A stretch of 32,000 nt of DNA from Thermosulfurimonas dismutans (GCF_001652585.1 NZ_LWLG01000005.1:1-32000), one strand, 5' to 3'. Counted from the first letter of the stretch, positions 8,610 to 32,000 are shown. The notes: a model not told the origin generated them from the sequence alone. Program-made: numbers and translations.

Positions 8610-8612
8610 ACT

Positions 8613-9167: not shown

Positions 9168-9187
9168 CTTTAGCCTCCTTTTGGGGT

Positions 9188-9556
9188 TTATTCGTAAATT
9201 TTGGCAATCATCCAAGGATAGACGGTGGCTACAATGAGGAGAATCAGGGCCGCCCATGTAATCACCTTGCTTACCCTGGAGGCCCATCCCGGCTCTTCAC
9301 AGGCACACCGGAAAACCTGCTTTTTTAGGATCTTCTCTTTAAACCAGTTTCTGAGGTGATAGATGCGATAAAAAGAAAAAGCTATGGCCGCATAGCCTAT
9401 GAGAAGAAAATAGGGACGGTAAGGTTCTAGTTTGGTCAGAAACTCTAATCCGCTTATCGAGACCCCAAAAACTACAAAAATAGTAGGAACCACGCAACAG
9501 GAAGCAGCTAATAAAGAAGCTATCCCTCCCAGCAAACCACTGATCGTGTCTCTCAT
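9188..9556 (-). CDS. merT: MerT-like metal transport membrane protein
   Basis: Three predicted TM helices are present. A vicinal Cys pair lies in TM1 (AASCCVVP) and a Cys pair lies in the TM2-TM3 loop (RCACEEP), which is the MerT layout. I prefer the start at the third codon of the track ORF (ATG at 9556, 6 nt after AAGGAG). Confidence 0.65.
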   Translation of the reverse strand: MRDTISGLLGGIASLLAASCCVVPTIFVVFGVSISGLEFLTKLEPYRPYFLLIGYAAIAFSFYRIYHLRNWFKEKILKKQVFRCACEEPGWASRVSKVITWAALILLIVATVYPWMIAKIYE

Positions 9557-9584
9557 GATCATCTCCTTTACGATGGTATTTGTT

Positions 9585-11825: not shown

Positions 11826-11835
11826 GGTCTTGCTC

Positions 11836-18106: not shown

Positions 18107-18121
18107 ATGAGGAGAAACGTT

Positions 18122-18148
18122 CCGGCCGGGGAGAAATTCCTCGGCCGG
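18122..18148 (+). terminator. Strong GC hairpin after fhs (possible terminator or mRNA stabiliser)
   Basis: The sequence CCGGCCGGGGA-GAAAT-TCCTCGGCCGG forms an ~11-bp stem starting 16 nt after the fhs stop. The trailing T tract is weak (GCTTTC), so termination efficiency is uncertain. Confidence 0.35.
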
Positions 18149-18272
18149 GCTTTCAAACCTTCAGTAAGGTACCCGAAAATTTTACAAAAGTATCATTAGT
18201 TACGATCACAATCAGATTGGCATGTATCTTGCTAACGTTAGTGTCTTTCGAAAGGACACAAGGAGGTAAAGT

Positions 18273-19175
18273 ATGGCGGCCAAAATCATAAGCGGCAAAG
18301 AAATCTCCAAAGAAATCCGGGAAGAGCTTAAAAAAGAGGTCCAGGAACTCAAGGAAAAACATGGTGTTACTCCGGGGTTGGTAACCATCTTGGTAGGCAA
18401 CAATCCGGCTTCGGTCTCCTATGTGACGGCCAAGCAAAAGGCCGCGCACGATCTAGGTTTTTATTCCGTTCAGGACAATCAACCTGAAGATATTAGTGAA
18501 GAGGCCCTACTGGATCTCATCAAAAAATACAACGAGGATCCTAAGATCCACGGTATTCTGGTGCAGCTTCCACTTCCTAAGCACATCGACGAGCGCAAGG
18601 TCATCTATGCCATCGATCCTCGAAAGGACGTAGACGGTTTCCATCCGGTAAATGTAGGTAAGATGGTGATCGGCGAGCCTTGCTTTTTGCCCTGCACTCC
18701 GCACGGCATATTGGTCATGCTCGAGCGGGCTGGAGTGGAAGTGGATGGAGCCGAGGTGGTGGTCGTTGGTCGGAGCAACATCGTGGGCAAACCGGTTGCC
18801 AACCTGCTTCTTCAGAAGCGGAAACCGGTAGGCAATGCCACGGTCACGGTCTGTCATACCGGAACGCGAGACATGGCCTTTCATACTCGGAGGGCCGACA
18901 TCCTGATCGTGGCGGCGGGGCGCCCTAAGGTCGTTACAGCGGACATGGTTAAAGAAGGGGTGGTGGTGATTGACGTCGGAGTAAATCGTATAGGAACCAC
19001 TCCGGAAGGCAAGGCCATCCTCTGTGGAGACGTGGATTTTGAGAGTGTCAAGGAGAAGGCCGCGGCCATTACCCCGGTTCCCGGTGGGGTAGGCCCCATG
19101 ACCATCACCATGCTCATGAAAAATACCGTGGAGGCAGCCAAGCTCTGGGCAGGACTTCCCTGTGAGGTGGCTTAG
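18273..19175 (+). CDS. folD: Bifunctional 5,10-methylene-THF dehydrogenase / 5,10-methenyl-THF cyclohydrolase
   Basis: The product is 300 aa. The motifs PGLVTILVGNNPASVSYV, GILVQLPLP, VVVVGRSNIVGKP and PVPGGVGPMT are canonical FolD. Confidence 0.95.
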   Translation: MAAKIISGKEISKEIREELKKEVQELKEKHGVTPGLVTILVGNNPASVSYVTAKQKAAHDLGFYSVQDNQPEDISEEALLDLIKKYNEDPKIHGILVQLPLPKHIDERKVIYAIDPRKDVDGFHPVNVGKMVIGEPCFLPCTPHGILVMLERAGVEVDGAEVVVVGRSNIVGKPVANLLLQKRKPVGNATVTVCHTGTRDMAFHTRRADILIVAAGRPKVVTADMVKEGVVVIDVGVNRIGTTPEGKAILCGDVDFESVKEKAAAITPVPGGVGPMTITMLMKNTVEAAKLWAGLPCEVA

Positions 19176-19221: not shown

Positions 19222-21264
19222 ATGGATCCCAGGGCAAGAATGAAGGGTAAGAGGACGCCTAAAGTCCAGAACAAGACGGCTCAGGTTATTTACGAAAGTC
19301 TGGGCGAGGAAATTCTTACGGCTCCGGCTCGAGTGGAACGCCGAGGGACCACGCCCTGTCTCTTTGGTAAAGGGGGTACCTGTTGTCGGGTCTGTAACAT
19401 GGGCCCATGTCAGGTGGTGGAGGGCGTGGAAGAACTTAAAGGCGTCTGCGGAGCTAGTGCGGCTACGGTAGTGGCCCGGAACTTCGGACGTATGGTGGCC
19501 AGCGGTGGCTCAGCTCACTCGGATCATGGCCGGCAGGTGGCTATTGATTTTTATGAAACCGTTCATGGTGAGACGCCTTTTGAGGTCAAAGACAAACGCA
19601 AGTTGCGGGTGGTAGCTCAGGCTCTGGGAGTCGATCCCAATCAGGAAGAACCGGAACTTCTGAAACAGATAGCTGAGGTTGCTTTGAGGGTTTTTAACCA
19701 GCAGGAAGGTGAAATCCCCTTTATACGTCGGGCACCGGAGAAGAGGCAGGCCCTCTGGCGTGAGCTGGGGGTGGTGCCTCGGGGGGTAGATCGCGAGGTG
19801 GTAGAACTTCTCCACCGGACTACCATTGGTGTGGATCAAGACTACCGGAATATCCTTATGGCCTGTGCCCGCACGGCTCTGGCCGATGGCTGGGGCGGCT
19901 CTATGATCGCCACCGAGCTCCAAGACTTACTATTTGGCAATCCTGGGCCTATCAAGGCCAAAGTCAACATCGGCCTAAGCGTCATTAGGGAAGACATGGT
20001 GAACGTGGCCGTGCACGGGCACGAACCAGTTCTGGCCGAGGCTCTGGCCATGGCGGCTAGCGATCCCGAGATCGTGGAAGAGGCCAAGAAAGTTGGGGCG
20101 AAAGGCGTAAATCTCGCCGGTATCTGTTGCACTGGGAACGAGATCCTCATGCGACGCGGTATTCCGGTAGCCGGAAGCTTTTTACAGCAGGAAGCGGCCA
20201 TTGCTACCGGGGCTCTTGAGGCCGTAGTGGTGGATGTCCAGTGTATCATGCAGAACGTGGTCGAGATCGCCAAACACTTCCACACCGCGGTCATCACCAC
20301 CAATCCTCGGGCCAAGATGGAAGGTGGTATTCACTTGGAATTCGACGCCCGCAAGGCCCTTGATTGCGCCAAGGCCATCCTGCGGGAGGCCATCGCTAGA
20401 TTTCCGAAGCGGGATAAATCTAAGGTCAATATTCCGGATCATACCGTGGATGTGGTGGTGGGCTTCAGTCACGAGACTATCCTTTATATGTTAGGGGGAC
20501 GTTTCCGGGCTTCCTACAAGCCTTTAAACGAGAACATCATCAACGGTAAAATCCTCGGTGTGGCAGCCATCGTAGGTTGCGACAACTATAGGGTAACCGA
20601 AGAAATCCAGGTTGAACTGGCCAAGGAACTCATCGCCAACAATGTGCTGGTGCTCACCACCGGTTGCGCGGCTACTGGGCTTGGACGGGCCGGTTTATTG
20701 CGGCCTGAGGCCGCGGAATTAGCCGGAGACAGCCTCAGAGAGGTGCTTGAGGCCGTAGGCTGTCCTCCAGTGCTTCACATGGGCTCTTGCGTGGACAACA
20801 GCCGTATTTTGGTGGCGGCCAGCGAAATGGTCCACACCGGTGGCCTGGGAGAAGACGTAAATGAACTTCCGGTGGTGGGGTGTGCGCCTCAGTGGATGAG
20901 CGAAAAGGCCATTACCATCGGTCAGTATTTCGTGGCTTCCGGGGCTACCGTGGTCTTCGGTCCGGATTTTCCGACCCTACAGAGCCAAGTGGCTACGGAC
21001 TTTCTCTTCCATGAGATGGAGAAGATCTTCGGAGCCGCCTGGCGAGTGGCCAGAACCGCGGAAGAATTTGCCTCCATTATGATCGATCATATCAAAAACA
21101 AGCGCAAGGCCCTGGGTATCGACAAACCCAAACCCAGAGTGCTCTTCGATATGGCCATGCGTCGGGCCCTTGAGAGCCCGAAGGTCACCAGTCCTTTCCA
21201 CGGACTGGGCTGTTTTGGACCACTTAGTCTAAAGGTGAATCCGGAAGAAGAAAAGGCGGCTTAA
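19222..21264 (+). CDS. acsA: Ni-Fe carbon monoxide dehydrogenase catalytic subunit
   Basis: The product is 680 aa. The N-terminal Cys motifs [19 protein letters not shown] supply the D/B-cluster ligands, and later motifs include HGHEP and GICCTGNE. It lies in a cluster with acsB, acsC and acsD. Confidence 0.9.
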
Positions 21265-21286: not shown

Positions 21287-24200
21287 ATGGCCAAGAAATC
21301 GGGAAAAGTACTCGTGGTGGGGGGAGGTATCGCCGGGATCCAGACGGCCTTGGATCTCGCAGAGCTTGGCTATTACGTCTATCTAGTGGAGAAAAAGGCC
21401 ACCATCGGGGGGGTAATGGCCAAGCTGGATAAGACCTTCCCCACCAACGACTGTAGTATCTGAATACTGGCGCCCAAAATGGTGGAGGCCGGTCGGTCTC
21501 CCAATATCGAAATCCTCACTCTGGCGGAGGTAGAAAGTCTTTCCGGAAAACCGGGAAAGTTTAAAGCAAAGGTCAAAATTCGCCCTCGCTACATCGATCC
21601 AGATAAATGCACGGCTTGTGGTCAGTGTATGCAATACTGTCCGCGTGAGGCGGTGGACGAATACAACGAACGTCTAGATTTTACTCGGGCGGCTCGCATC
21701 GACTTTCCCCAGGCCGTGCCCACGGCCTATTACATCGACGAGGACCGTTGTCTCCAGCTCAACCACGAAACTTGTATGATCTGCACTAACGTCTGCGGTC
21801 CCAAGGCCATCGACTTCAATCAGGAACCAGAGATCCGGGAGCTTGAAGTTGGAGCGGTGGTGCTCTGTCCGGGCTTCGGGAACGTTCCAGAAGAGGCCCT
21901 TACGAAATATGGTTACGGAATCTATCCCGACGTTATGACCAGTCTTGAAATCGAACGTCTCATGTGTGTTTCCGGCCCCACGGAAGGCGAAATCATACGA
22001 CCTTCGGACTTTTCTCATCCCCGAAAGATCGCCTTTCTCCAGTGCGTAGGCTCAAGGGACGTTTCTTGTGGCCGTCCTTTCTGTTCCTCGGTCTGCTGTA
22101 TGTACGCCATGAAAGAGGCCTCCATGCTAAAAGAACATGCCCCGGAGGCCGAAATCGCTCTCTTTTTCATGGACGTGCGCACCCAAGGCAAAGGCTTCGA
22201 CGCCGCCTTTGAGCGGGCGGTAGACAAATACGGGTTCCGCGTGATCAAGGCCAGGGTGCCCAAGGTAGAACAGGTGGACGGGCGTCTGGCCTTGAACTAT
22301 GTCACCGAAGAGGGCACGGTTCACCGGGAACTTTTCGATCTGGTGGTGCTCTCGGTAGGTCTTTCAGCCCCGGAAGGTGCTGAAGAGTTGGCCAAAAAGT
22401 TCGGAATTGAGCTCAATCCCTTCGGTTTTGCCAAAACCGAAGTCAAAGACCCGCTCACTGCCAAATCCGGCATATATGTGGCTGGTGCCTTCCATGGACC
22501 TAAGGACATTCCAGAAAGCGTCATGCAGGCCAGCGGTGCAGCGGCCAAGGTCTCGGAATTGCTAGCTGAGGCCCGGGGCCAGGACATGGTCGAAAAGGAG
22601 TTCCCGCCCGAGGATCAAGAACTCCTTGAGATGCCGGTGAGGGTGGGAGTCTTCGTGTGTCACTGTGGGGTAAACATTGCTGGAGTGGTGGACGTTGAGG
22701 CCGTAAGAGACTACGCCAAGTCCCTTCCTGGGGTGGTCTATGCCGAAAACGTACTCTATTCCTGCGCTCAGGACTCTCTTGAAAAACTCAAGGAGAAAAT
22801 CAAGGAACACAAACTAAACCGATTGGTGATTGCGGCCTGCAGTCCACGCACCCATGAACCCCTATTTCAGGAGACGCTGCGGGAGGCCGGGCTCAACCTG
22901 GCTTTGGTGGAAATGGCCAACATCCGAGACCAATGTTCCTGGGTGCACGCCGACGACCCTGAGAAAGCCACTCAGAAGGCTAAGGACCAAGTACGCATGG
23001 CGGTGGCCAAGGCTCGGAGATTGAAGCCACTTGAACTCCAGAAGGTCAAGGTTACGCCTTCGGCACTGGTCATCGGTGGAGGGGCTGCTGGTATGGCAGC
23101 CGCCCTTTCCATCGCGGATCAGGGCTATGAGGTACATCTTGTTGAAAAGGAGGCTGAGCTTGGAGGTCACTTGCGCCGGGTGAAATTTCTTGCTGAAGGC
23201 GAGAACCCGCAGAAGATCCTAAAGGATCTCATCACACGGGTGGAAAAACACGAAAATATTCGAGTTTACAAATCGGCTTCGGTGGAAAATATCTCGGGTT
23301 ATGTCGGAAACTTTACCTCTACTATTAAGGTCAAAGAGGGCTCAAAAGTCATAAACCACGGAGTGGTGGTGGTAGCCACCGGAGCTAAAGAACATAAACC
23401 TAGTGGATATCTTTACGGAAAGAACCGCAAGATACTCACGCAGCTTGAACTTGAGGAGAAGCTTTCGCGCGGCAAGCGTGGTTTGGGAAAGACCCGCCGG
23501 GTAGTCATGATCCAGTGTGCTGGTTCGCGGGGGGAGGAGTTGCCCCACTGTAGCAAGCTCTGTTGTCAACAAGCGGTCAAAAACGCCCTGCGTATCAAAG
23601 AGCTCTCCCCGGAGACGGAGGTTTTCATCTTCTATCGTGATATGCGAACTTACGGTTTTTATGAGGAACTTTACCGCAAAGCCCGCAACCAGGGGGTGAT
23701 CTTCCTCCGCTATGAGCCTACTCAGCGGCCCGAAGTGCTAAAGAAAGGACGAGGGATCGTGGTTCGGGGCTATGACGCCCTTCTGGGGGAAGAGATCGAG
23801 ATTCCTGCGGACCTAGTGGTGCTTTCGGTAGGCGTGGCTCCAGACAAAGAGAACCCCATCGCTCAGATCCTCAAGACCCCGATGACCGACGAGGGTTTCC
23901 TCATGGAGGCCCACGTAAAACTCCGTCCGGTGGAAGTAGCCGTAGATGGAGTTTACATCTGTGGTCTGGCCCACGGGCCCAAGCCCTTGGAGGAGACCCT
24001 GGCCCAGGCCAAGGCTGCGGCTGGCAAGGCGGTAATCCCGTTGGCCAAGGGGTTCGTAGAGGTTCCGCCGATCGTCTCTCGGGTAGAAGAAAAGAAGTGT
24101 ATCGGTTGTGGTATCTGCGCTTCCCTTTGTCCTTATAACGCCATTGAGATGGTCAAAAAGGAGAAACGCCGCAAGGCCCAAGTGATCGCAGCGGCCTGTA

Positions 24201-24352
24201 AGGGCTGTGGTGTCTGCGGTTCACACTGTCCGGTCTTCGCCATTACTCTGGGCGGCTTTACCGACGAAGCCATACTGGAACAGATCCAGGCCTTTGGACT
24301 TCCAGAGGCCGAAGAATCCAAAGAGGCTGAATTGGAAAAAGAAGCGGCTTAA
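21287..24352 (+). CDS. hdrA: HdrA-like flavoprotein, double length, with in-frame UGA (Sec) at 21461-21463
   Basis: The ATG at 21287 lies 7 nt after GGAGG and opens the same frame as track ORF 21479..24352. The translation is [71 protein letters not shown]. The UGA replaces the second Cys of the conserved HdrA DCSMC motif. A second GGGAAG dinucleotide fold and a C-terminal 2x[4Fe-4S] motif are present. Confidence 0.85.
21484..21501 (+). promoter_or_regulatory. Candidate bacterial SECIS hairpin for hdrA
   Basis: GGAGGCC-GGUC-GGUCUCC forms 7 bp including one G-U pair, and begins 20 nt after the UGA. The GGUC apical loop is the same tetranucleotide I recall from the E. coli fdhF SECIS loop. Confidence 0.5.
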
Positions 24353-24364
24353 GGAGGGGTTAGG

Positions 24365-25084
24365 ATGCAATTTGAACCCAGGATTTTAAGTTTTCTTTGC
24401 AACTGGTGTTGTTATGCAGCAGCGGATTCGGCGGGAGTGGCCCGGTTCAGTTACCCTCCGAACAACCGGGTCATCCGGATTATGTGTACTGGCAGGATGG
24501 ATCCCCAGTTCGTAGTAGAGGCCTTTTATGTTCGTGCTGACGGCGTTTTCGTAGGCGGGTGACACTTGGGAGAGTGCCATTACCAGTCTGGTAATTACGA
24601 AGCTCTAGTCATGGCGGAGACCGTAAGGCGAATCTTGGATACAGTGGGTATCAACCGGGAGCGTTTTACTATCGACTGGGCCTCCGCGGCGGAAGGCCCC
24701 CGTTTCGTAAAGCTTTTGACTGAATTCACTGAAAAAATAAAGACTATGGGCCCTCTGGGCGAGGCCGAGGGCTTGGATTGGGAAACCCTCAAGTTCCGGC
24801 TTGAAGCCGCTCGCAATCTCTGTAAAAATATGCAATTTCGAGCCCAGTACGGTAATCTGGCCAAAGAGATAAAGAAGTTGGGAGACTATAGTCCGGAGAA
24901 CATCTCCCAGGCGATAGAAAAGAAACTGGTGCCCCAGATAAGGAAGAGAATCTTCGAGGCCGAGCTCAAGGAACTTATAGCTCAGGGTCCCCAGGCGGTG
25001 GAAGTCCTCAGGGAGAAGACCGGGGCTACGGAAGAAGAAATCGGGGCCATTCTTGAAACCCTGAAAAAGAAGGAGAAAAAGTGA
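24365..25084 (+). CDS. mvhD: MvhD-family (methyl-viologen-reducing hydrogenase delta subunit-like) protein with in-frame UGA (Sec) at 24560-24562 and a C-terminal extension
   Basis: Track ORFs 24365..24562 and 24566..25084 are in the same frame and are separated only by TGA-CAC. The joined sequence reads ...ADGVFVGG-U-HLGECHYQSGNY..., against the MvhD consensus GGCHxGDCHY. The N-terminal FLCNWCCYAAADSAG is a typical MvhD motif. Confidence 0.8.
24579..24595 (+). promoter_or_regulatory. Candidate SECIS hairpin for mvhD
   Basis: AUUACC-AGUCU-GGUAAU forms 6-7 perfect bp with a loop containing GU. It begins 16 nt after the last base of the UGA. Confidence 0.45.
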
Positions 25085-25626
25085 TGGAACTTACGGTAGA
25101 AAAAAACTGGGTTTCCGAGGTCAAGAGTCTTCCCGAGACTTTGGCTCAGTGTTTTCGGTGTGGGGCTTGCTCGGGAATCTGTCCAGTAAAGCGCATCCGT
25201 AAAGACTTCGATCCTCGTGTGATTGTCCATGCCACCATCTTAGGGATAAAAGACAAGCTCTTTGGTACGCCTATCCTTTGGCACTGCTCTCAGTGTCAGA
25301 GCTGTGTGCCGGTGTGCCCCATGGAGGTAAAGCCGGCTGAGGTTATCAAAGCCCTGAGGGACTATGCCCTTAAAGAAGGCCTGGCCAGCGAGGAGACCCT
25401 CTTTGAGGCCGGAAGATTGGCCAGGGTCAATCCTAAAAAGTGCATTGTATGTCTCACCTGTGTGCGGGTGTGCCCCTTCGGGGCGCCAAGCATCAAAGAC
25501 GAAGGTTATGCGGTTATCGATCCGGCCAAGTGTCACGCCTGCGGTATTTGTGTGCAAGAATGTCCGGCCCGGGCCATAGAGCTTCATCCCGCGGCCGAAT
25601 TTGCCACTTACAAATGGGGGGTTTAG
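25084..25626 (+). CDS. Four-cluster-motif 4Fe-4S protein (HdrC-like N-terminal half plus ferredoxin-like C-terminal half)
   Basis: The Cys motifs are CFRCGACSGICP, CSQCQSCVPVCP, CIVCLTCVRVCP and CHACGICVQECP. The ATG at 25084 overlaps the mvhD stop (TGATG). No CCG (HdrB-type) motif is present. Confidence 0.7.
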   Translation: MELTVEKNWVSEVKSLPETLAQCFRCGACSGICPVKRIRKDFDPRVIVHATILGIKDKLFGTPILWHCSQCQSCVPVCPMEVKPAEVIKALRDYALKEGLASEETLFEAGRLARVNPKKCIVCLTCVRVCPFGAPSIKDEGYAVIDPAKCHACGICVQECPARAIELHPAAEFATYKWGV

Positions 25627-25632
25627 TAAGCG

Positions 25633-26034
25633 ATGGCCGATATCAAGATTGGAATCCTCTGTTGTCATTACACCAATACCTCGGACGAGGAAGACTTTAA
25701 GGGTCTGCCCGCGGACGTGATCATGAAACGTTTCCCCTGCTCCGGCCACATTGAAGTGGCGGATATCCTCAAGACCTTTGAGGAAGGAGCCGAGGCCGTG
25801 TTGGTGGCCGGCTGCGAGAAGGACAGTTGCCACAATATTTCGGGAAGCGTGCGGGCGGAAAAGCGGGTCCTAGGAGCCCGGAAAATTTTGGAAGAAATTG
25901 GCCTTTCTGGCGAAAGAGTCAGAATGGCCTTTGTACCCCGATTGGATTCGGGAACATTTATGACCGAAGTAAAATCCCTATTCGAGATTGCTTTAAATTT
26001 GAAGTCTAAGTCCAAAGGAGATGGGCAAAAATGA
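25633..26034 (+). CDS. Second MvhD-family protein (Cys version)
   Basis: The product is 133 aa. The motifs ILCCHYT and ...EAVLVAGCEKDSCHNISG align with the Sec-containing paralogue (GG-U-HLGE-C-H against AG-C-EKDS-C-H). Confidence 0.7.
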   Translation: MADIKIGILCCHYTNTSDEEDFKGLPADVIMKRFPCSGHIEVADILKTFEEGAEAVLVAGCEKDSCHNISGSVRAEKRVLGARKILEEIGLSGERVRMAFVPRLDSGTFMTEVKSLFEIALNLKSKSKGDGQK

Positions 26035-26702
26035 TAATTGCAGAAAGAAAACCCATTCCCAAGGTGTTAAAGGCTATCGAGCCTTATGACAAAGTGCTGG
26101 TGTTAGGGTGTCGGGGCTGCGTGGCCATTTGTTCGGCCGGAGGCGACCGGGAGGTCGAGACCATAGCTGCGGCCTTGAGGCTGGCCAGAAAGCTTTCCGG
26201 AAGGCCGCTTGAGACCGGAGAGGCCACGCTCATTCGGCAGTGCGATCCAGAGTATCTGGCCGTGCTTCCAGAGATGGCCAAAGATTACCAGGCCGTGGTG
26301 TCTTTGGCCTGTGGGGTAGGGGTCAATTTGATTGCGGATCTTTATCCTGAGATTCGGGTTTATCCGGGCGTGGATACCTCTTTTTACGGGGCCAACTCGG
26401 CCTTAGGAGAATGGCAAGAAAAATGTCGGGGTTGTGGAGACTGTATCCTGGATATCACAGGTGGCCTCTGTCCCATCGCCCGGTGTGCCAAAAATCTTTT
26501 GAATGGACCCTGCGGGGGGTCCCAAGGCGGACGTTGTGAGATCCGTCCAGAGGTCCCCTGTGTGTGGCACCAGATCTACGAGAGGCTTTCTTCCCGGGGC
26601 GAGCTTGAGCGGTTGCTCAACTTCTTCCCGGCCAAGGACTGGCGTCCGGCCGGACATGGAGGTCCCCGGGAGAGGATAAGAGAAGACCTGCGTATGGGAT
26701 AA
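26031..26702 (+). CDS. metV: MetV (MTHFR C-terminal-domain-like small subunit of methylene-THF reductase)
   Basis: The product is 223 aa. The motifs MIIAERKP, LGCRGCVAIC, CRGCGDCIL, GGLCPIARCAKNLLNGPCGG and CxW match my recollection of Moorella MetV. The start overlaps the upstream stop (ATGA). Confidence 0.75.
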   Translation: MIIAERKPIPKVLKAIEPYDKVLVLGCRGCVAICSAGGDREVETIAAALRLARKLSGRPLETGEATLIRQCDPEYLAVLPEMAKDYQAVVSLACGVGVNLIADLYPEIRVYPGVDTSFYGANSALGEWQEKCRGCGDCILDITGGLCPIARCAKNLLNGPCGGSQGGRCEIRPEVPCVWHQIYERLSSRGELERLLNFFPAKDWRPAGHGGPRERIREDLRMG

Positions 26703-26727
26703 AAACGGGTAGAAAAGGAGGGGAAGG

Positions 26728-29169
26728 GTGGAGCCTAGAAGCCATCTTCAAAAAGTTCTTTCCGAAGGGCACTTCGCCGTTACCGCAGAGATCGGCCCTC
26801 CCAAGAGTGCTGATGGAGAGGTCGTAAGAAAGAAGGCCCGGATTCTCAAAGGTTACGTGGACGCGGCCAACATCACCGACTGTCAGACGGCTATTGTCCG
26901 GATGTCCTCCATTGCTTCGGCGGTGTTGGTGATGGCTGAAGGGGTAGAGCCGGTCATCCAGATGACTTGCCGCGACCGGAACCGGATCGGTATCCAGGCC
27001 GATCTCCTAGGGGCGGCGGCCCTGGGGGTAAAGAATCTCCTTTGTATCACCGGTGACCACCAGAAGTTCGGGAATCATCCCGAGGCCAAAGGGGTCTTCG
27101 ATCTGGACTCCATCCAACTTACGGCCATGGTGCGCCAGATGAGGGACGAGGGTAAGTTCCTCTGCGGGGAAGAACTCACTGGTGCCCGGCCAGAATTTTT
27201 TATCGGGGCGGTGGAGAATCCCTTTGCCGATCCTTTTGAATTCAGGGTAAAGCGGCTGGAAAAAAAGGTCAAAGCCGGAGCGGAATTCATCCAGACCCAG
27301 ATTATCTACAACGTAGAGCGTTTCAAGAAGTTTATGGAGATGGCCCGAGATTTAGGGCTCACGGAGAAGGTCTATATCCTGGCCGGGATCACGCCTCCCA
27401 AGTCCTTCGGTATGGCCCGTTACATGAAGTATTTTGTGCCGGGCTTGGACGTACCAGACGAGATCCTCAAGCGCATGAAAGAGGCCAAGGACAAACGGGA
27501 GGAAGGTATCAACATTGCGGTAGACATCATTCAACAGGTACGCGAGATCCCGGGCGTGGCCGGCGTACACATCATGGCCATCGAATGGGAAGAGGCCGTC
27601 CCTGAGATCGTAAAACGGGCCGGGCTCCATCCGAGACCGCTTGAGGCTGAGGTCAAGCCGGCCATTGCAGTAGAAGTCGAACGTCCTGAAAAGATTGAAG
27701 TGGTGGCCCCACCCAAAGAGGAGGAAGAAGTGGCCGAAGGGCCGCCTAAGATAGAGATCCCCGTAGAGGCCGTCAAAGAGGTCTTTTCCTCGGTGCGTTC
27801 AAGCATCGAGTCCCTGCGTGAAGGTATCAATCTCCTTCATGACAGTTTGGCCAGGCTTGAGCGTGCTCTCCTTGGTGGAGAGGTGGTCCCGGCGGAGGTG
27901 CCGCAGGTAGAGGTCAAGGTGGAAGAGAAACCGGTGGTAGAGGAAAAACCTGCGGAAGAAGAGAAACCGGCGGTGGAAGAGAAGCCGGTAGAGGAGATCA
28001 AGAAAGAAGTCAAACCAGAAGAAGAGAAGCCGGAAGAAAAACCGACTGAAGAAGAGCCCGAGGCCAAACCGATTGCAGAAGAACCCAAGGCTGCAGAACC
28101 TAAGCCGGAAGAGAAGCCGGCGGTGGAAGAGAAGCCGGCGGCTCCAGCTGGGCCTCCGCCTGAAGGTGTGGAACTTGGTGGCTTTATAGGTGAGTACCGT
28201 CCGCTTTCCGAACGAGCGGCGGGGCTCCCCGAGGATCTCTATAAAGATCCGGGTACGGCTTTCATACGGGAGGTAGAGATCGGTAAGGGCGAAAAGGCCT
28301 TCAAGGTTGGTGGTACCAACGTGCTCCCCTTCCAGCTCTTTGAAGGCGAGATGAAAAACCAGCCTCGCATTGCCATGGAGGTCCTAGACGTAAAGCCTGA
28401 AAACTGGCCGGAGAGCCTGGCCAAATATTTCGAGGACGTCTTTGACGATCCTGCGGCCTGGGCCAAAAAGTGCGTGGAGACCTACGGAGCCGAGGCCGTA
28501 TGTGTATATCTCATGGGTACAGACCCCAACTATCTGGACTTGGATGCCAAGCATGCCCGGGAAGTAGTAGAGAAGGTCGTCAAGGCCGTGGACGTGCCCA
28601 TCGTGGTCTGGGGTGCTGGACATGCGGAGAAAGACGTGGAGGTTTTGAGGGAAGTGGCCGAGATCCTTGGAGATCGTGGAGCAGTCATTGGTCCGGTGGA
28701 GGAGGCCAATCATCGTACCTTGGGGGCCACGGCCATGGGTTACGGGCTCCCGGTAGTGGCGACGAGCCCTATCGACGTGAACCTAGCCAAGCAGTTGAAC
28801 ATCCTCCTTGAGAATATTGGAGTGTCACTCGACAAGATCCTGATGGACCCTTCCATCGGAGCCCTAGGTTACGGTCTGGAGTACACCTACTCGGTGATGG
28901 AACGTATTAGGCTTGCGGCCCTTTACGCCCAGGACGAAAAGCTCCAGGTGCCTTTTGTCTGTAACGTGGGGCGCGAAGTCTGGAAGACCAAAGAAGTGGG
29001 GCTTCCCACCGACGAGATACTGGGCGACCAGGAGGTTCGCGGCGTCCTCATGGAGGCCATTACCTCGGTGGCTTTGGCGCTGGCCGGAGGCGATCTTTTT
29101 ATCATGCGTCATCCCAAAGCCATTGAGCTAACAAAGACGATTATAAGCGCTCTTATGCAAGAAAATTAA
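26728..29169 (+). CDS. metF: Fusion protein: MetF (methylene-THF reductase, aa 1-~302), a Glu/Lys/Pro-rich linker, then AcsD (corrinoid Fe-S protein small subunit, aa ~510-813)
   Basis: This is a single uninterrupted 813-codon ORF with a GTG start after AAAGGAGGGGAAGG. The N-terminal part has MetF motifs (AVTAEIGPP, CRDRN, LCITGD, FIGAVENPF, FIQTQ). The C-terminal part aligns along its length with my recollection of M. thermoacetica AcsD (LPFxxFEGE, AMEVxD, SPIDxNxxKQLNILxxxxG, DPSIGxLGYGxEYxxSxMERIRL, MRHP). Confidence 0.85.
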   Translation: MEPRSHLQKVLSEGHFAVTAEIGPPKSADGEVVRKKARILKGYVDAANITDCQTAIVRMSSIASAVLVMAEGVEPVIQMTCRDRNRIGIQADLLGAAALGVKNLLCITGDHQKFGNHPEAKGVFDLDSIQLTAMVRQMRDEGKFLCGEELTGARPEFFIGAVENPFADPFEFRVKRLEKKVKAGAEFIQTQIIYNVERFKKFMEMARDLGLTEKVYILAGITPPKSFGMARYMKYFVPGLDVPDEILKRMKEAKDKREEGINIAVDIIQQVREIPGVAGVHIMAIEWEEAVPEIVKRAGLHPRPLEAEVKPAIAVEVERPEKIEVVAPPKEEEEVAEGPPKIEIPVEAVKEVFSSVRSSIESLREGINLLHDSLARLERALLGGEVVPAEVPQVEVKVEEKPVVEEKPAEEEKPAVEEKPVEEIKKEVKPEEEKPEEKPTEEEPEAKPIAEEPKAAEPKPEEKPAVEEKPAAPAGPPPEGVELGGFIGEYRPLSERAAGLPEDLYKDPGTAFIREVEIGKGEKAFKVGGTNVLPFQLFEGEMKNQPRIAMEVLDVKPENWPESLAKYFEDVFDDPAAWAKKCVETYGAEAVCVYLMGTDPNYLDLDAKHAREVVEKVVKAVDVPIVVWGAGHAEKDVEVLREVAEILGDRGAVIGPVEEANHRTLGATAMGYGLPVVATSPIDVNLAKQLNILLENIGVSLDKILMDPSIGALGYGLEYTYSVMERIRLAALYAQDEKLQVPFVCNVGREVWKTKEVGLPTDEILGDQEVRGVLMEAITSVALALAGGDLFIMRHPKAIELTKTIISALMQEN
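27883..28161 (+). repeat. In-frame low-complexity (E/K/P/V/A) repeat region inside the metF-acsD linker
   Basis: The peptide is ...VEVKVEEKPVVEEKPAEEEKPAVEEKPVEEIKKEVKPEEEKPEEKPTEEEPEAKPIAEEPKAAEPKPEEKPAVEEKPAAPAGPP. It includes an exact 22-nt DNA repeat, CCGGCGGTGGAAGAGAAGCCGG, at 27967-27988 and 28117-28138. Confidence 0.8.
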
Positions 29170-29184
29170 AGGAGGTTGCGAGCT

Positions 29185-31407
29185 ATGTCCAAGATCATTG
29201 CTAGCGCGGCCATTCGTGGGGCTCATAAGATTGTGGAACGGGCCCAAGAAAAATATGAGGAGGCCGTGAAGAAATTCGGAAAGGATACCGAGGTCGCTTT
29301 CCCGAACACGGCCTATTATCTGCCCATCATTTATGCCATGTTGGGTTATCCGGTAAAAAAGCTCGGAGATTGCGGAGAAGTTCTGGAAGAGGCCAAGCGC
29401 CTGCTGCCTCCGGTGCCCACAGACGAGCTCTGGACCCCTTATCTGGGGCCGGCGCTCGATGCCGGTATGGCTACTTTCTTTGCGGAAGAGATCATTGAGG
29501 CCATCCGCTATCTGGAGGATCCCAATTTCTACACCAAAACTGAGGAGCCAGTTAATGGAAACATTTGGCTTGGAGCGGCCGACGACGTGATCTTTCGTAA
29601 ACGTGGAGTGGAATTTGTGGATGGCACGGCTCCAGGGTTTGCAGCCATTCTCGGCGCTCCGCCGAACAAAGAAATTGCCGTCAAGATCGCCCAGGAGCTC
29701 CAGGAAAAGAACCTCTACGTCTTCATGCATTCAGACACCAACGGGGTGCGTATGGCCGAACAGCTTAAAGAGGCTGGGGTTCAGCTCGGCTGGCCCACCC
29801 GTTTGGTTCCCTTCGGTCCGGACACCACCTCGGTGGTCTTCGCTATCGGCTTTGCCTGCCGGGTAGCTATGGCCTTTGGTGGTATCAAACCCGGAGACTA
29901 CATGGGTAACCTCCTTTATAACAAAGACCGAACCTTTGCCTTCGCCATAACTTTCGGTCCGGTTTCCGACGAATGGTACGCCAATGGAGCCGGGGCCATC
30001 AACTGGGGCTTCCCGGTGATCTCCGACTGGGACATCCCTGAGATCAAGCCCTTTGGGGTGTGTACTTACGAACACGTGGTCTCCAAGGTGCCCCACGAAG
30101 AGATCGTGGACCGAGCCATTGAAGTCCGAGGGCTCAAGGTCACCACGGTGAAGCTCGACATCCCGGTAGCCTATGCCCCGGCTTTTGAAGGGGAAAGGGT
30201 CCGTAAGGACGATCTCTATCTGGAGTGCGGTGGTGGAAGGACTCCGGCAGTTGAACTCCTGATCTCCAAGCCCCTTGAGGAAGTGGAAGACGGAAAGATC
30301 GAGGTCATAGGCCCTGAAATAAACGAGGTGGAAAAGCTTGGCATAAAAGGACCTCCCTATCGTTTACCCTTTGCAGTAGTGGTGGAAGTAGCTGGAGCTA
30401 ACATGCAGGAGGACTTCGAGGCTATTCTTGAGCGGCAATTCCATCACCTCATCAACTACGCCCAGGGTATCATGCACGTAGGGCAACGTAATATCATGTG
30501 GCTGCGGATCAGTAAGGCTGCTGTAGAAAAAGGATTCCTCTTCAAGCACATCGGGGAGATCCTTTACGCCAAGATGCGCCAAGAGTTCGGCGCCATCGTG
30601 GACAAGTGCCAGGTGACCATCTATACCGAAGAAGAGAAGGTCAAGGAGATCCTGGAGCTGGCCAAGGAGGTCTATACCCGGCGTGACGAACGGATAGCCG
30701 GTATGACTGACGAGACCGTAGACGTGTACTATTCCTGCACTCTGTGTCAAAGCTTTGCACCCAGCCACGTGTGCGTAATCACGCCGGAACGGATCGGTAT
30801 GTGCGGGGCCTACAACTGGCTCGACGGCAAGGCCTGCTACGAGATCAATCCCACTGGTCCCAACCAGCCTATTGAAAAAGGTGAGGTTATTGACGAGAAG
30901 CTAGGACAGTTCTCCGGTATAAACGAGTTCGTGAAGAAGGCCTCCAGAGGGAAGGTAGAAAGGGTGAGCCTTTACAGTATCATGGTAGACCCCATGACGG
31001 CCTGCGGATGTTTCGAGTGTATTGCAGCCATGTTGCCCTCGGTAAACGGCATCATGATCGTAAACCGTGATTATCTTGGCATGACTCCCTCGGGCATGAA
31101 GTTTTCTACCATGGCCGGTATGGTGGGTGGCGGTCAGGTGACCCCCGGTTTCATGGGGGTCTCTAAGCACTATATCACCTCTCGGAAATTTCTTATTGCC
31201 GAAGGGGGGCTTAAACGGGTGGTCTGGATGCCCAAGATGCTCAAAGAAGAACTTAAAGACAAGCTCAAGCAGCGGGCCGAAGAGCTGGGGATCCCCGATC
31301 TCATCGACAAGATTGCAGACGAGACTGTGGCCTCTACGGAACAAGAAGTCAAGGAATGGGTGGAAAAGGTCAAACACCCGGTTCTAGAGATGGAACCCTT
31401 GATGTAA
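29185..31407 (+). CDS. acsB: Acetyl-CoA synthase (A-cluster subunit of CODH/ACS)
   Basis: I prefer the ATG at 29185, 9 nt after AAAGGAGG, over the track TTG at 29176. The sequence closely parallels my recollection of M. thermoacetica AcsB throughout (NTAYYLPII, GPAFEGERVRK, GQRNIMWLRISK, YSCTLCQSFAPSHVC, TACGCFEC, PMTPSGMKFST). Confidence 0.92.
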   Translation: MSKIIASAAIRGAHKIVERAQEKYEEAVKKFGKDTEVAFPNTAYYLPIIYAMLGYPVKKLGDCGEVLEEAKRLLPPVPTDELWTPYLGPALDAGMATFFAEEIIEAIRYLEDPNFYTKTEEPVNGNIWLGAADDVIFRKRGVEFVDGTAPGFAAILGAPPNKEIAVKIAQELQEKNLYVFMHSDTNGVRMAEQLKEAGVQLGWPTRLVPFGPDTTSVVFAIGFACRVAMAFGGIKPGDYMGNLLYNKDRTFAFAITFGPVSDEWYANGAGAINWGFPVISDWDIPEIKPFGVCTYEHVVSKVPHEEIVDRAIEVRGLKVTTVKLDIPVAYAPAFEGERVRKDDLYLECGGGRTPAVELLISKPLEEVEDGKIEVIGPEINEVEKLGIKGPPYRLPFAVVVEVAGANMQEDFEAILERQFHHLINYAQGIMHVGQRNIMWLRISKAAVEKGFLFKHIGEILYAKMRQEFGAIVDKCQVTIYTEEEKVKEILELAKEVYTRRDERIAGMTDETVDVYYSCTLCQSFAPSHVCVITPERIGMCGAYNWLDGKACYEINPTGPNQPIEKGEVIDEKLGQFSGINEFVKKASRGKVERVSLYSIMVDPMTACGCFECIAAMLPSVNGIMIVNRDYLGMTPSGMKFSTMAGMVGGGQVTPGFMGVSKHYITSRKFLIAEGGLKRVVWMPKMLKEELKDKLKQRAEELGIPDLIDKIADETVASTEQEVKEWVEKVKHPVLEMEPLM

Positions 31408-31419: not shown

Positions 31420-32000
31420 ATGGGACTTACCGGTATCCAGATAATGCAAAAACTTCCCAAGACCAATTGTGGGGACTGTGGGTTTCCCACCTGTCTGGCT
31501 TTTGCCATGAAGGTGGCTGCCGGACAGGCGGAGATTGACAAGTGTCCGCACGTGGACCCGGCGGTGAAGGAGGAGATTGCGGAGGCCTCCGCTCCGCCCA
31601 TAAGGACGGTAGTCCTCGGAAGTGGGGAGCACCAGGTCAAACTCGGCGGCGAGACCGTACTCTTCCGCCACGAAAAGCGTTTCGAGAATCCTACTGCCAT
31701 TGGAGTGCGTATCGCTACTGATATGGACGCCGGCGAGGTGGATCGTAGGGTGGAGGCCTTCAAAAAATTTCGGTGGGAACGGGTAGGGGTCATGCTTGTC
31801 CCCCAGATGGTGGCCGTGGAGGACACCGGAGCCGGAAAGGAGGCCTTTGTCAACCTGGTGAAAAAGGTACGGGAGGAGGCCCCGGAAGCCGTATTGGTTC
31901 TAATGAGCGGGGATAAAGAGGCCCTTTCGGCGGCCTGTGAGCTCTGCGGAGAGCACAAGCCGCTTCTCTACGCCGCTACACTCGACAACTTCAAGGAGAT
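31420..32000 (+). CDS. acsC: Corrinoid iron-sulfur protein large subunit (5' part; continues beyond the window)
   Basis: My own translation is MGLTGIQIMQKLPKTNCGDCGFPTCLAFAMKVAAGQAEIDKCPHV...APPIRTVVLGSGEHQVKLGGETVLFRHEKRF. The N-terminal CxxCxxxxC...C [4Fe-4S] motif is typical of AcsC. The RBS is AAGGGAGGAG, and the frame is open to the window end. Confidence 0.85.
   Translation, partial: MGLTGIQIMQKLPKTNCGDCGFPTCLAFAMKVAAGQAEIDKCPHVDPAVKEEIAEASAPPIRTVVLGSGEHQVKLGGETVLFRHEKRFENPTAIGVRIATDMDAGEVDRRVEAFKKFRWERVGVMLVPQMVAVEDTGAGKEAFVNLVKKVREEAPEAVLVLMSGDKEALSAACELCGEHKPLLYAATLDNFKE

What the first reader, a model, noticed from the sequence alone, without database searches (positions are those of the whole stretch)
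26728..29169. Single ORF fusing methylene-THF reductase MetF to the corrinoid Fe-S protein small subunit AcsD
The 813-codon ORF has a complete MetF domain (aa 1-~302) and a complete AcsD domain (aa ~510-813). They are joined by about 200 residues that contain a predicted amphipathic helix (VEAVKEVFSSVRSSIESLREGINLLHDSLARLERALL) and a long E/K/P-rich spacer. There is no stop or frameshift between the domains.

MetF makes methyl-THF. AcsD, together with AcsC, is the corrinoid acceptor of that methyl group via the methyltransferase AcsE. I am not aware of a described MetF-AcsD fusion.

A flexible tether would physically link the last methyl-branch reductase, and through MetV-MvhD-HdrA its bifurcating module, to the CFeSP/ACS machinery. 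That hints at a WL supercomplex with substrate or electron channelling.

There is a caveat. An internal GTG (VELGGF..., near 28168) could also allow separate AcsD translation.
Basis: partly seen in the sequence, partly recalled or inferred. Interest (0 to 1): 0.8.

Follow-up and report, generated by a model that had tools for sequence, protein, structure and literature searches.

The report
Conserved MetF–AcsD fusion with structured tether
A real gene, conserved across one clade of sulfur bacteria, joins the last methyl-branch reductase of the Wood-Ljungdahl CO2-fixation pathway to a subunit of the corrinoid protein that receives the methyl group, and annotation has overlooked it even though it is common.

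Summary
Window 26728-29169 (+) is one 813-codon ORF from Thermosulfurimonas dismutans. It holds a complete MTHFR/MetF domain (aa 1-300) and a complete AcsD domain (aa ~506-813), joined by about 200 residues.

It is neither an artefact nor unique. All 120 best database homologues are the same fusion. At least 29 species genomes in three classes of Thermodesulfobacteriota carry it, always next to acsB-acsC.

The linker is more than a floppy tether. It has a conserved 37-residue heptad helix (aa 346-382) and a conserved motif just before AcsD (aa 488-505). Between them lie disordered E/K/P tandem-repeat spacers. Many relatives add a coiled coil and TPR repeats.

The MetF catalytic residues are invariant. 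The internal GTG has no ribosome-binding site.

The most likely function is to tether MTHFR to the corrinoid Fe-S protein, giving fixed stoichiometry and local hand-over of methyl-THF. This is inferred, not shown. The link to MetV/HdrA is not universal, because Desulfobulbia keep the fusion without those genes nearby.

Ten open-literature searches found no description of it. Databases call it simply 'AcsD', which hides the MetF domain.

Verdict: a new variant of a known kind, of moderate interest.

The parts
26716..26721 (+). Shine-Dalgarno AGGAGG, 6 nt upstream of the GTG start of the fusion gene
   Evidence: upstream sequence aaAGGAGGggaagg GTG scores 6/6, like the other real starts in the operon.
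26728..29169 (+). metF::acsD fusion ORF (813 aa plus stop); TDIS_1006 by gene order in the genome paper
   Evidence: ORF. (100% identical NCBI protein P0001). (PMC4911364 lists TDIS_1006 as MTHFR and TDIS_1009 as acsE).
26728..27627 (+). MetF / MTHFR TIM-barrel domain (aa 1-300), with catalytic E21, D110 and Q191
   Evidence: aligned to human and T. thermophilus MTHFR motifs. (E21, D110, Q191 invariant in 119 sequences). (pLDDT mostly >90). (TM 0.78-0.83 to solved MTHFRs).
27643..27762 (+). Spacer 1 (aa 306-345), acidic and Pro-rich, predicted disordered
   Evidence: pLDDT <50 for 316-344. (composition). (low conservation, 0.35-0.49).
27763..27873 (+). Conserved amphipathic heptad helix (aa 346-382); putative coiled-coil or docking module
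   Evidence: H346-382, pLDDT 65-73. (11/11 a/d positions strongly hydrophobic against 3/26 elsewhere; positions 353, 356, 360, 363 are 96-100% hydrophobic in both subgroups). (conservation island 0.54-0.58).
27874..28167 (+). Spacer 2 (aa 383-480), E/K/P-rich and disordered, built from in-frame tandem repeats
   Evidence: repeats of period 15, 18 and 27 nt at 27918-28141. (pLDDT about 30). (E32 P20 K15 of 98, net charge -17).
28168..28170 (+).
   Evidence: no SD in the proper window (2/6); no + strand promoter-like site in the linker.
28189..28242 (+). Conserved lead-in motif EYRPLSERAAGLPEDLY (aa 488-505), upstream of the canonical AcsD start
   Evidence: hhalign between linker subgroups, probability 91%, E 9e-7. 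(R496 invariant). (2h9a_B residue 6 aligns to aa 505).
28243..29166 (+). AcsD / CFeSP small-subunit TIM-barrel domain (aa 506-813)
   Evidence: (pLDDT >90). (TM 0.91-0.95 to 4djd_D and 2h9a_B, 42-43% identity).
26031..26702 (+). metV (DUF5981, 'MTHFR C-terminal' zinc-ribbon/Fe-S protein)
   Evidence: PF12225, E 1e-36.
25633..26034 (+). mvhD-like gene 2
   Evidence: FlpD PF02662, E 1e-23.
25081..25626 (+). HdrC-like poly-ferredoxin
   Evidence: Fer4 families; TIGR03290 68 bits, below its cutoff.
24365..25084 (+). mvhD-like gene 1, with in-frame TGA (24560-24562) read as selenocysteine
   Evidence: same TGA in 6 related loci; Cys in L020. (FlpD).
21479..24352 (+). hdrA-like flavoprotein (957 aa) with ferredoxin domains
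   Evidence: Pyr_redox_2 and Fer4 families.
19222..21264 (+). cooS/acsA (Ni-CODH)
   Evidence: Prismane PF03063, E 1e-156.
16343..19175 (+). fhs (16343-18106) and folD (18273-19175)
29185..31407 (+). acsB (acetyl-CoA synthase); the start is probably ATG 29185, not TTG 29176
   Evidence: NF040764, 1116 bits. (SD before 29185).
31420..32000 (+). acsC (CFeSP large subunit) 5' part; runs off the window
   Evidence: N-terminal CxxCxxxxC...C Fe-S motif. (AcsC follows AcsB in related loci).

Best explanation
The ORF is a real gene translated as one ~90 kDa bifunctional polypeptide.

Anatomy:
- An N-terminal, catalytically competent flavin-dependent methylene-THF reductase (MetF).
- A C-terminal small subunit of the corrinoid iron-sulfur protein (AcsD), which pairs with AcsC, encoded two genes downstream.
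- A structured tether between them: a disordered acidic/Pro spacer, then a conserved 5-heptad amphipathic helix, then about 100 residues of disordered E/K/P tandem repeats, then a conserved lead-in motif.

Distribution: the fusion forms one clade, most simply explained by a single fusion of adjacent metF and acsD genes. It is maintained in Thermodesulfobacteria, Dissulfuribacteria and Desulfobulbia.

Inferred mechanism:
- The covalent tether fixes MetF and CFeSP at 1:1 and keeps MetF within roughly 10 nm of the CFeSP/AcsE methyl-transfer site (my own polymer-scaling estimate, not from a tool).
- Methyl-THF made by MetF is then used locally, and THF is recycled locally (proximity channelling).
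- The long spacer still lets CFeSP move between AcsE and acetyl-CoA synthase.
- The heptad helix most likely drives self-association (a parallel coiled-coil dimer would fit the two-fold MeTr:(CFeSP)2 assembly and oligomeric MTHFRs) or docks a partner.
- In T. dismutans, electrons for MetF probably come from the MetV/HdrA-like/MvhD(Sec)/Fe-S proteins encoded immediately upstream.

Shown: gene, domains, conservation, linker anatomy, gene context.
Inferred: a single polypeptide in vivo, tethering and channelling, the role of the helix, the electron donor.
For: - ORF and domains.
- Not an artefact: an identical NCBI protein exists, and 120/120 top homologues are fused, with linkers of 170-475 aa that all keep the frame. 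Fused genes occur in at least 29 GTDB species genomes.
- One clade: only two full-length representatives remain at 50% clustering, and the fused AcsD domains are monophyletic in an NJ tree.
- Plausible precursor: adjacent, unfused metF-acsD in the same gene order in L018 and L020, with no linker.
- Catalytic competence: E21, D110 and Q191 align to MTHFR catalytic motifs and are invariant.
- Linker under selection as protein: a conserved helix island and pre-AcsD motif, a perfect heptad, and TPR or coiled-coil modules in relatives.
- Spacer repeats have periods that are multiples of 3.
- AF2 shows two confident barrels, one isolated helix and disordered spacers.
- The fusion start has a strong SD; the internal GTG has none; no promoter or terminator lies in the linker.
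- Context is metV upstream and acsB-acsC downstream. acsE is TDIS_1009.
Against: - There is no protein-level evidence that the ~90 kDa species exists or survives proteolysis of its disordered linker.
- Channelling is purely inferential. Fusion of neighbouring pathway genes can be selected for co-expression alone.
- AF2 gives no fixed inter-domain geometry (pTM 0.54), and I could not run multimer models.
- Homology of the helix between subgroups is only suggestive (hhalign E 6e-4, probability 30%).
- T. dismutans has a second MTHFR, TDIS_0870, so the MetF domain need not be the only reductase.
- Desulfobulbia lack metV/hdrA next to the fusion, so the electron-donor part of the model does not generalise.
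Confidence: 0.62

Rival explanations
1. The gene is fused, but the mature proteins are separate. The polyprotein is cleaved in its disordered linker, or AcsD is also initiated internally. In that case the fusion serves only co-expression and stoichiometry, not physical tethering.
For: About 140 linker residues are predicted disordered and would be accessible to proteases. In-frame GTG codons exist in the linker, including 28168. Unfused adjacent metF and acsD work in L018 and L020.
Against: No internal start has a properly spaced SD, whereas real starts have AGGAGG. No promoter-like site lies in the linker. The linker carries conserved protein-level features (heptad helix, pre-AcsD motif, TPRs in relatives), which would not be maintained if the linker were simply discarded. 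Linker length is retained at 170 aa or more in 120/120 homologues.
Confidence: 0.13
2. The linker is an interaction hub that makes the fusion the scaffold of a larger Wood-Ljungdahl metabolon. Through the heptad helix (and TPRs in relatives) it would recruit AcsE, ACS/CODH or the electron-donor module.
For: The heptad helix is conserved across the family. TPR repeats and long coiled-coil segments, typical protein-protein interaction modules, occupy the linker in many homologues. All candidate partners are encoded in the same operon. Other covalent WL fusions exist: AcsB-AcsD, AcsD-CooS, MetV-MetF.
Against: No interaction data exist and multimer modelling was not possible. T. dismutans itself has no TPRs. 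The helix could simply homodimerise. Desulfobulbia lack the Hdr/MetV partners next to the gene.
Confidence: 0.2
3. The MetF domain is not the pathway reductase. It would be a non-catalytic or regulatory folate-binding module attached to CFeSP, with a separate MTHFR (TDIS_0870) doing the chemistry.
For: A second MTHFR gene is reported in the genome. Genome papers on relatives assign MTHFR to other loci.
Against: The catalytic Glu, Asp and Gln equivalents, and most of the barrel, are invariant across 119 homologues. The MetF domain is the best-conserved part of the protein (0.85). metV, the dedicated MetF partner, lies directly upstream.
Confidence: 0.04
4. The fusion is an assembly, sequencing or frameshift artefact that joins two separate genes.
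For: Low-complexity repeats in the linker are error-prone. A few MAG loci (L011, L027, L054) do show broken frames.
Against: The same architecture appears in 120/120 independent homologues, from isolates with complete genomes (T. marina, 1.76 Mb contig; Thermosulfuriphilus ammonigenes, 2.29 Mb contig) and from many metagenomes. Linker lengths differ, yet all are in frame.
Confidence: 0.01

Closest known systems
Corrinoid iron-sulfur protein small subunit AcsD/CdhD (Carboxydothermus hydrogenoformans 2H9A/2YCL, Moorella thermoacetica 4DJD, 9FZY)
   Same: The C-terminal 308 residues are a full-length homologue: E 5e-80, 42-43% identity, TM 0.91-0.95. The gene sits with acsB and acsC.
   Different: Canonical AcsD is a stand-alone protein of about 310-320 aa. 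Here it carries a 505-residue N-terminal extension containing an entire MTHFR and a structured linker. A conserved 18-residue lead-in motif precedes the canonical start.
MetFV-type methylene-THF reductases associated with HdrA/MvhD (e.g. the MetFV-HdrABC-MvhD complex of Moorella thermoacetica, as cited in PMC10553843; details from my own knowledge)
   Same: The MetF domain is preceded by metV, mvhD-like, Fe-S and hdrA-like genes. Stand-alone MetF proteins 60-70% identical to this domain follow metV/hdrA/mvhD in Chloroflexota, anammox bacteria, Actinomycetota and Firmicutes.
   Different: MetF is covalently joined to AcsD. No HdrB (CCG-domain) gene is in the cluster. MvhD contains selenocysteine. 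In Desulfobulbia the fused gene has no metV/hdrA/mvhD upstream.
Other covalent fusions of Wood-Ljungdahl and C1 enzymes: AcsB-AcsD (P0212, P0266), AcsD-CooS (P0136), MetV-MetF (P0124), MetV-MetF-MetH (P0179); bifunctional homocysteine methyltransferase/MTHFR (NCBIfam NF006396)
   Same: The principle is the same: consecutive or interacting C1-pathway components on one chain. At least the AcsB-AcsD type also has a spacer before AcsD that aligns to part of this protein's linker (query aa 448-805).
   Different: The partner differs. None of them joins the methyl-branch reductase to the corrinoid protein, and none was seen with the heptad-helix/TPR linker.
Swinging-arm Ala/Pro/charged linkers of 2-oxo-acid dehydrogenase E2 subunits (analogy from my own knowledge, not tested)
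   Same: Long Pro- and charge-rich, extended, repeat-evolving spacers that tether a mobile catalytic or carrier domain within a multienzyme complex.
   Different: There is no sequence relationship. Here the tethered unit is a whole enzyme, not a carrier domain, and mobility has not been shown.

Membership tests
MTHFR / MetF (PF02219) | Full-length match to the family profile above the curated cutoff | tested here: met
   144 bits against a cutoff of 24, profile positions 2-287 of 287, aa 7-299.
MTHFR / MetF (PF02219) | Catalytic Glu (E. coli E28), Asp (D120) and Gln (Q183) equivalents present | tested here: met
   E21 in 'aEigPP', D110 in 'tGDh' and Q191 in 'iqTQ' align with 'EffPP', 'rGD' and 'itQ' of human and T. 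thermophilus MTHFR. They are invariant in 119 homologues. The E. coli numbering is from my own knowledge.
MTHFR / MetF (PF02219) | (beta/alpha)8 barrel fold like solved MTHFRs | tested here: met
   pLDDT mostly >90; TM 0.78-0.83 to 8eac, 1b5t and 1v93.
MTHFR / MetF (PF02219) | Binds flavin and reduces 5,10-methylene-THF | not testable with these tools
   Needs biochemistry.
AcsD / CdhD, CFeSP small subunit (PF03599; NCBIfam PRK04452 subfamilies) | Match to family models above the curated cutoff | tested here: met
   PF03599, 149 bits against a cutoff of 24.8. NF003376, 374 bits against 280. The narrower models NF040759 (295 against 430) and NF003377 (461 against 527) are below cutoff, so it is an AcsD but not a member of those exact subfamilies.
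AcsD / CdhD, CFeSP small subunit (PF03599; NCBIfam PRK04452 subfamilies) | TIM-barrel fold superposable on solved small subunits | tested here: met
   TM 0.91-0.95, rmsd 1.6-1.9 A to 4djd_D, 2h9a_B, 2ycl_B and 9fzy_E.
AcsD / CdhD, CFeSP small subunit (PF03599; NCBIfam PRK04452 subfamilies) | Encoded with acsC, acsB, cooS and acsE | tested here: met
   acsE (TDIS_1009) is reported in PMC4911364 and lies outside the window.
AcsD / CdhD, CFeSP small subunit (PF03599; NCBIfam PRK04452 subfamilies) | Forms a heterodimer with AcsC that carries the corrinoid | not testable with these tools
   No multimer modelling or biochemistry was available.
Hdr-coupled MetFV reductase complex (Moorella-type MetFV-HdrABC-MvhD) | metV adjacent to metF | tested here: met
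   PF12225 at 26031-26702, 25 nt upstream of the fusion.
Hdr-coupled MetFV reductase complex (Moorella-type MetFV-HdrABC-MvhD) | hdrA and mvhD in the same operon | tested here: met
   hdrA-like 21479-24352; mvhD-like 24365-25084 and 25633-26034.
Hdr-coupled MetFV reductase complex (Moorella-type MetFV-HdrABC-MvhD) | hdrB (CCG domain) and a bona fide hdrC present | tested here: not met
   there is no CCG-domain protein among the cluster genes. The 181-aa Fe-S protein scores 68 bits on TIGR03290 (cutoff 160). This is therefore a related module, not a demonstrated member.
Hdr-coupled MetFV reductase complex (Moorella-type MetFV-HdrABC-MvhD) | The association holds across the fusion family | tested here: not met
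   about 20 Desulfobulbia-type loci have cooS directly followed by metF::acsD, with no metV/hdrA/mvhD. PMC7117923 also reports metV absent in a Desulfobulbus MAG.

The most novel reading that the evidence does not exclude
The MetF-AcsD polypeptide is the organising scaffold of a Wood-Ljungdahl metabolon in Thermodesulfobacteriota.

Its conserved heptad helix (plus TPR and coiled-coil modules in relatives) would dimerise the protein and recruit AcsE, ACS/CODH and the reductant-supplying module. The folate cofactor would then cycle between MetF and the methyltransferase without leaving the complex.

In Desulfobulbia, which lack MetV/Hdr next to the gene, the linker would dock a still unidentified electron donor for MTHFR. 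That would define a new functional type of MTHFR.
Probability: 0.2. Interest if true: 0.75.

Novelty: new variant of a known kind. Interest (0 to 1): 0.5.

Why it matters
First, the fusion is natural "Rosetta-stone" evidence that the last methyl-branch enzyme and the corrinoid methyl acceptor work in physical proximity. That makes the long-discussed idea of substrate channelling or a supercomplex in the Wood-Ljungdahl pathway directly testable in cultivable organisms (Thermosulfurimonas, Thermodesulfatator, Desulfocapsa, Desulfurivibrio).

Second, it has a practical consequence for annotation. NCBI and JGI name these proteins only 'acetyl-CoA decarbonylase/synthase subunit delta', so the WL-cluster MetF is invisible to name- or KO-based pathway reconstruction. 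Published genome analyses of relatives assign MTHFR to other loci, or discuss a missing metV, without noting the fusion.

Third, in Desulfobulbia the fused MetF has neither MetV nor Hdr neighbours. That reopens the question of the electron donor of MTHFR, the energetically critical step of the pathway, in sulfur disproportionators and their relatives.

Tried and rejected
- **Literature.** Ten full-text searches and targeted reading of nine papers found no description of a MetF-AcsD fusion. The 'fused' and 'fusion' hits referred to other things (HdrA-MvhD, HdrL, a GC column). Adam et al. 2018 PNAS is not held, so prior mention in papers not held in the library cannot be excluded.
- **Rfam.** The whole-window scan gave no hits.
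- **SECIS.** The fold downstream of the mvhD TGA is no better than shuffles (z 0.54). The Sec call rests on comparative evidence instead.
- **Helix homology.** hhalign of the whole linkers detected only the pre-AcsD motif. After trimming, the helix modules were each other's best match, but only at E 6e-4 and probability 30%, so homology is inconclusive. My strict regex motifs under-counted members and were abandoned.
- **Trees.** NJ trees without bootstraps disagree on whether the split metF/acsD pairs (L018, L020) are ancestral or a secondary fission. This is left unresolved.
- **Genome scan.** The GTDB scan keyed only on MetF motifs, so it cannot count stand-alone AcsD genes or show whether fused-lineage genomes hold metV elsewhere.
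- **TPRs.** TPR remnants in the T. dismutans linker were looked for and not found (E <= 0.01).
- **Artefact and internal start.** Both hypotheses were rejected.
Full report
**Observation**

The window contains a single ORF at 26728-29169 on the + strand: 813 codons, a GTG start and no internal stop.
- Pfam places a complete MTHFR domain on aa 7-299 (profile 2-287 of 287, E 6e-42) and a CdhD/AcsD domain on aa 515-756 (E 3e-43).
- NCBIfam AcsD/CdhD models cover aa 510-812; NF003376 scores 374 bits against a cutoff of 280.
- Against PDB sequences, aa 505-804 match the CFeSP small subunit of Carboxydothermus (2h9a_B, E 5e-80) and Moorella (4djd_D). Residues 9-306 match human and Thermus MTHFRs.

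**Source and context**

The protein is 100% identical to an NCBI entry from Thermosulfurimonas dismutans, named only 'acetyl-CoA decarbonylase/synthase complex subunit delta'. The taxonomy is Thermodesulfobacteriota, class Thermodesulfobacteria.

It lies in a Wood-Ljungdahl operon:
- fhs (16343-18106)
- folD (18273-19175)
- cooS (19222-21264)
- an hdrA-like gene (21479-24352)
- mvhD (24365-25084)
- an HdrC-like Fe-S protein (25081-25626)
- a second mvhD (25633-26034)
- metV (26031-26702)
- metF::acsD (26728-29169)
- acsB (29185-31407)
- acsC (from 31420)

By gene order the fusion is TDIS_1006. The 2016 genome paper lists that gene as one of two MTHFRs (the other is TDIS_0870), with acsE as TDIS_1009, and does not mention a fusion.

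**Not an artefact and not unique**

- All 120 best hits of the database search (of 1006 with E <= 1e-10) carry PF02219 plus PF03599 in one chain of 783-1085 aa.
- My domain mapping shows that every one has a full MetF domain (70-94% identity), a full AcsD domain (57-92% identity) and a linker of 170-475 residues.
- Named sources include Thermosulfurimonas marina, Thermodesulfatator, Caldimicrobium, Thermosulfuriphilus, Dissulfurirhabdus, Dissulfurimicrobium and Desulfobulbaceae.
- A scan of GTDB species representatives, followed by ORF-level classification, found the fused gene in at least 29 genomes.
- At 50% clustering the family collapses to two full-length representatives, and the fused AcsD domains are monophyletic in a rough NJ tree. 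The fusion therefore forms one tight clade, most simply explained by a single origin.

**Gene contexts**

1. Thermodesulfobacteria and Dissulfuribacterales have cooS-hdrA-mvhD-FeS-mvhD-metV-metF::acsD-acsB-acsC, as in the window.
2. About 20 Desulfobulbia loci (Desulfobulbaceae, Desulfocapsa, Desulfurivibrio) have fhs-folD-cooS-metF::acsD-acsB-acsC with no metV, hdrA or mvhD upstream. A Desulfobulbus MAG paper also reports metV as absent.
3. Two Desulfobacterales loci (L018 and L020, Ca. Desulfaltia) have separate adjacent genes, metV-metF(~348 aa)-acsD(~330 aa)-acsB. MetF stops right after its domain, an intergenic gap of about 130-180 nt follows, and there is no linker.
4. Chloroflexota, anammox Planctomycetota, Actinomycetota and Firmicutes have stand-alone metV-metF that is 60-70% identical to the MetF domain.

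The adjacent split arrangement is a plausible precursor of the fusion. However, the MetF and AcsD trees disagree on whether it is ancestral or a later fission.

**Linker anatomy**

AlphaFold2 with a 119-sequence alignment gives:
- two confident barrels (aa 1-300 and about 490-813, pLDDT mostly above 90);
- one isolated helix (aa 346-382, pLDDT 65-73);
- two disordered segments (aa 316-344 and 383-480, pLDDT about 30);
- a pTM of 0.54, which fits independent domains.

The helix is a conservation island: 0.54-0.58 at full occupancy, against 0.22-0.44 in the flanking spacer. It has a perfect heptad pattern. All 11 a/d positions are strongly hydrophobic (V-V-F-V-I-L-I-L-L-L-L), against 3 of 26 other positions. 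Positions 353, 356, 360 and 363 are 96-100% hydrophobic in both the Thermodesulfobacteria-type and the Desulfobulbia/Dissulfuribacteria-type proteins. Profile-profile comparison makes the two helix modules each other's best local match, but only weakly (E 6e-4, probability 30%).

A second conserved element, EYRPLSERAAGLPEDLY (aa 488-505, R496 invariant), precedes the canonical AcsD start.

The long spacer contains 32 E, 20 P and 15 K in 98 residues. At the DNA level it consists of imperfect tandem repeats with periods of 15, 18 and 27 nt, all multiples of three.

In Thermodesulfatator and Thermosuluriphilus, two TPR-like repeats follow the helix. In Dissulfuribacterales a long coiled-coil segment precedes the helix module and TPRs follow it. 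In Desulfobulbaceae the spacer is A/E/K-rich. T. dismutans has no detectable TPR.

**Competence of the domains**

The MTHFR catalytic motif residues align to E21, D110 and Q191, which correspond to Glu28, Asp120 and Gln183 in E. coli numbering (from my own knowledge). They are invariant in 119 homologues. The MetF domain is the most conserved part of the protein (0.85, against 0.77 for AcsD and 0.40 for the linker).

Foldseek superposes the C-terminal barrel on solved CFeSP small subunits (TM 0.91-0.95) and the N-terminal barrel on bacterial MTHFRs (TM 0.78-0.83). No solved chain spans both domains.

**One polypeptide or two?**

- Genuine starts in this operon have AGGAGG-type Shine-Dalgarno sites, including the fusion's own GTG (6/6 match). 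The internal GTG at 28168 has none in the proper window (2/6).
- No + strand promoter-like or terminator-like site lies in the linker.
- Conservation of protein-level features inside the linker argues that the linker is translated and functional.

Proteolytic processing cannot be excluded without protein data.

**Mechanism (inferred)**

MetF produces CH3-THF. AcsE transfers the methyl group to the Co(I) corrinoid held by AcsC/AcsD, and CFeSP then delivers it to acetyl-CoA synthase. This is established pathway knowledge.

Covalent tethering of MetF to AcsD would fix the stoichiometry and hold MetF within the reach of the spacer. I estimate about 9 nm rms and up to about 35 nm contour length for 98 residues. 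This is my own polymer-scaling estimate, not a tool result. Tethering would favour local use of CH3-THF and local recycling of THF, while still allowing the large movements that CFeSP needs.

The heptad helix most plausibly forms a coiled coil, either by homodimerisation or by docking a partner. In T. dismutans the upstream MetV, HdrA-like, MvhD (Sec) and Fe-S genes are the likely electron-input module. The cluster lacks HdrB, so it is not a demonstrated Moorella-type MetFV-HdrABC-MvhD complex. The Desulfobulbia context shows that the fusion is selected independently of that module.

**Comparison and novelty**

AcsD fuses with several other partners: AcsB-AcsD, AcsD-CooS, and on the MetF side MetV-MetF and MetV-MetF-MetH. 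The principle is therefore ordinary.

The specific MetF-AcsD architecture, with its structured linker, is present in databases but hidden under the name 'AcsD'. I found no description of it in ten full-text searches or in the genome papers on T. dismutans, strain F29, Dissulfurimicrobium, a Desulfobulbus MAG, Desulfobacterota WL evolution or D. autotrophicum. The Dissulfurimicrobium paper assigns MTHFR to loci outside the WL cluster.

I classify it as a new variant of a known kind, of moderate interest. Papers not held in the library could not be searched.

**Limits**

- There are no protein-level, interaction or kinetic data.
- No multimer modelling was possible.
- The trees have no bootstrap support.
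- The genome scan used MetF motifs only.
- Whether fused-lineage genomes have metV or a second acsD elsewhere was not testable.

Noticed in passing
window 24365-25084 (TGA at 24560-24562): The '172-aa' MvhD ORF is the C-terminal part of a 239-codon mvhD gene with an in-frame TGA inside the motif GG-U-HLGECHY. The same TGA sits at the same position in six related loci (L001, L003, L005, L010, L018, L024), and Ca. Desulfaltia (L020) has Cys there, so this is very probably selenocysteine. The downstream hairpin is no better than shuffles, and Rfam gave no hit.
   Followed up: partly
window 21479-26034: The Hdr-like module next to metV has an hdrA-like gene (957 aa, with N- and C-terminal ferredoxin domains), two mvhD-like genes and an HdrC-like Fe-S protein. 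It has no HdrB (CCG-domain) gene, so it differs from the Moorella MetFV-HdrABC-MvhD set.
   Followed up: partly
window 29176-29187: The acsB ORF is listed from TTG 29176, but ATG 29185 has an AGGAGG site 6 nt upstream and is the more likely start. That leaves 15 nt between the fusion's stop codon and acsB.
   Followed up: partly
window 4929-13935, - strand: A heavy-metal resistance island: two P-type ATPases (4929-7376, with two HMA domains; 11836-13935), HMA-domain proteins (7376-7861, 8877-9287), MerT (9188-9562), a multicopper oxidase (9585-11825) and an Lcl_C-domain protein (7611-8609).
   Followed up: no
window 1-4347: GC falls to 0.375 in the first 2 kb, against about 0.55 elsewhere. This stretch holds a PIN-domain ORF (1663-2088) and no direct repeats. 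It is followed by an aldehyde:ferredoxin oxidoreductase (2157-3917, -) and a poly-ferredoxin (3904-4347, -). It may be a horizontally acquired segment.
   Followed up: partly
L022 14469-18638; L007 14853-18692; L004 9484-11676: In Desulfobulbaceae loci, acsC is followed by an 845-aa GltD-like/Fe-S/FdhA-N ORF ending '...HCARL*', with the rest of FdhA continuing after the stop. This is probably a selenocysteine NAD(P)H-linked formate dehydrogenase. L004 instead has an hdrA-like gene after acsC. These are candidate redox partners in clusters that lack metV/hdrA upstream.
   Followed up: no
P0136, P0212, P0266, P0215, P0128-P0131, P0124, P0179: Other covalent architectures of WL components exist in public data: AcsD-CooS (1122 aa), AcsB-AcsD (1209 aa), AcsD with a C-terminal extension of about 200 aa and no Pfam match (506-532 aa), MetV-MetF (546 aa) and MetV-MetF-MetH (1681 aa).
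   Followed up: partly
L011 6324-9211; L027 1-2631; L054 2348-5066: Three MAG copies of the fused gene are broken by a frameshift or an in-frame stop inside a domain. These are most likely assembly errors and not real fissions.
   Followed up: no
L018 5281-7474; L020 7887-10087: Desulfobacterales and Ca. Desulfaltia genomes have metF and acsD as separate adjacent genes, with no linker, in an otherwise identical operon. This is the only unfused state seen within the phylum sample.
   Followed up: partly
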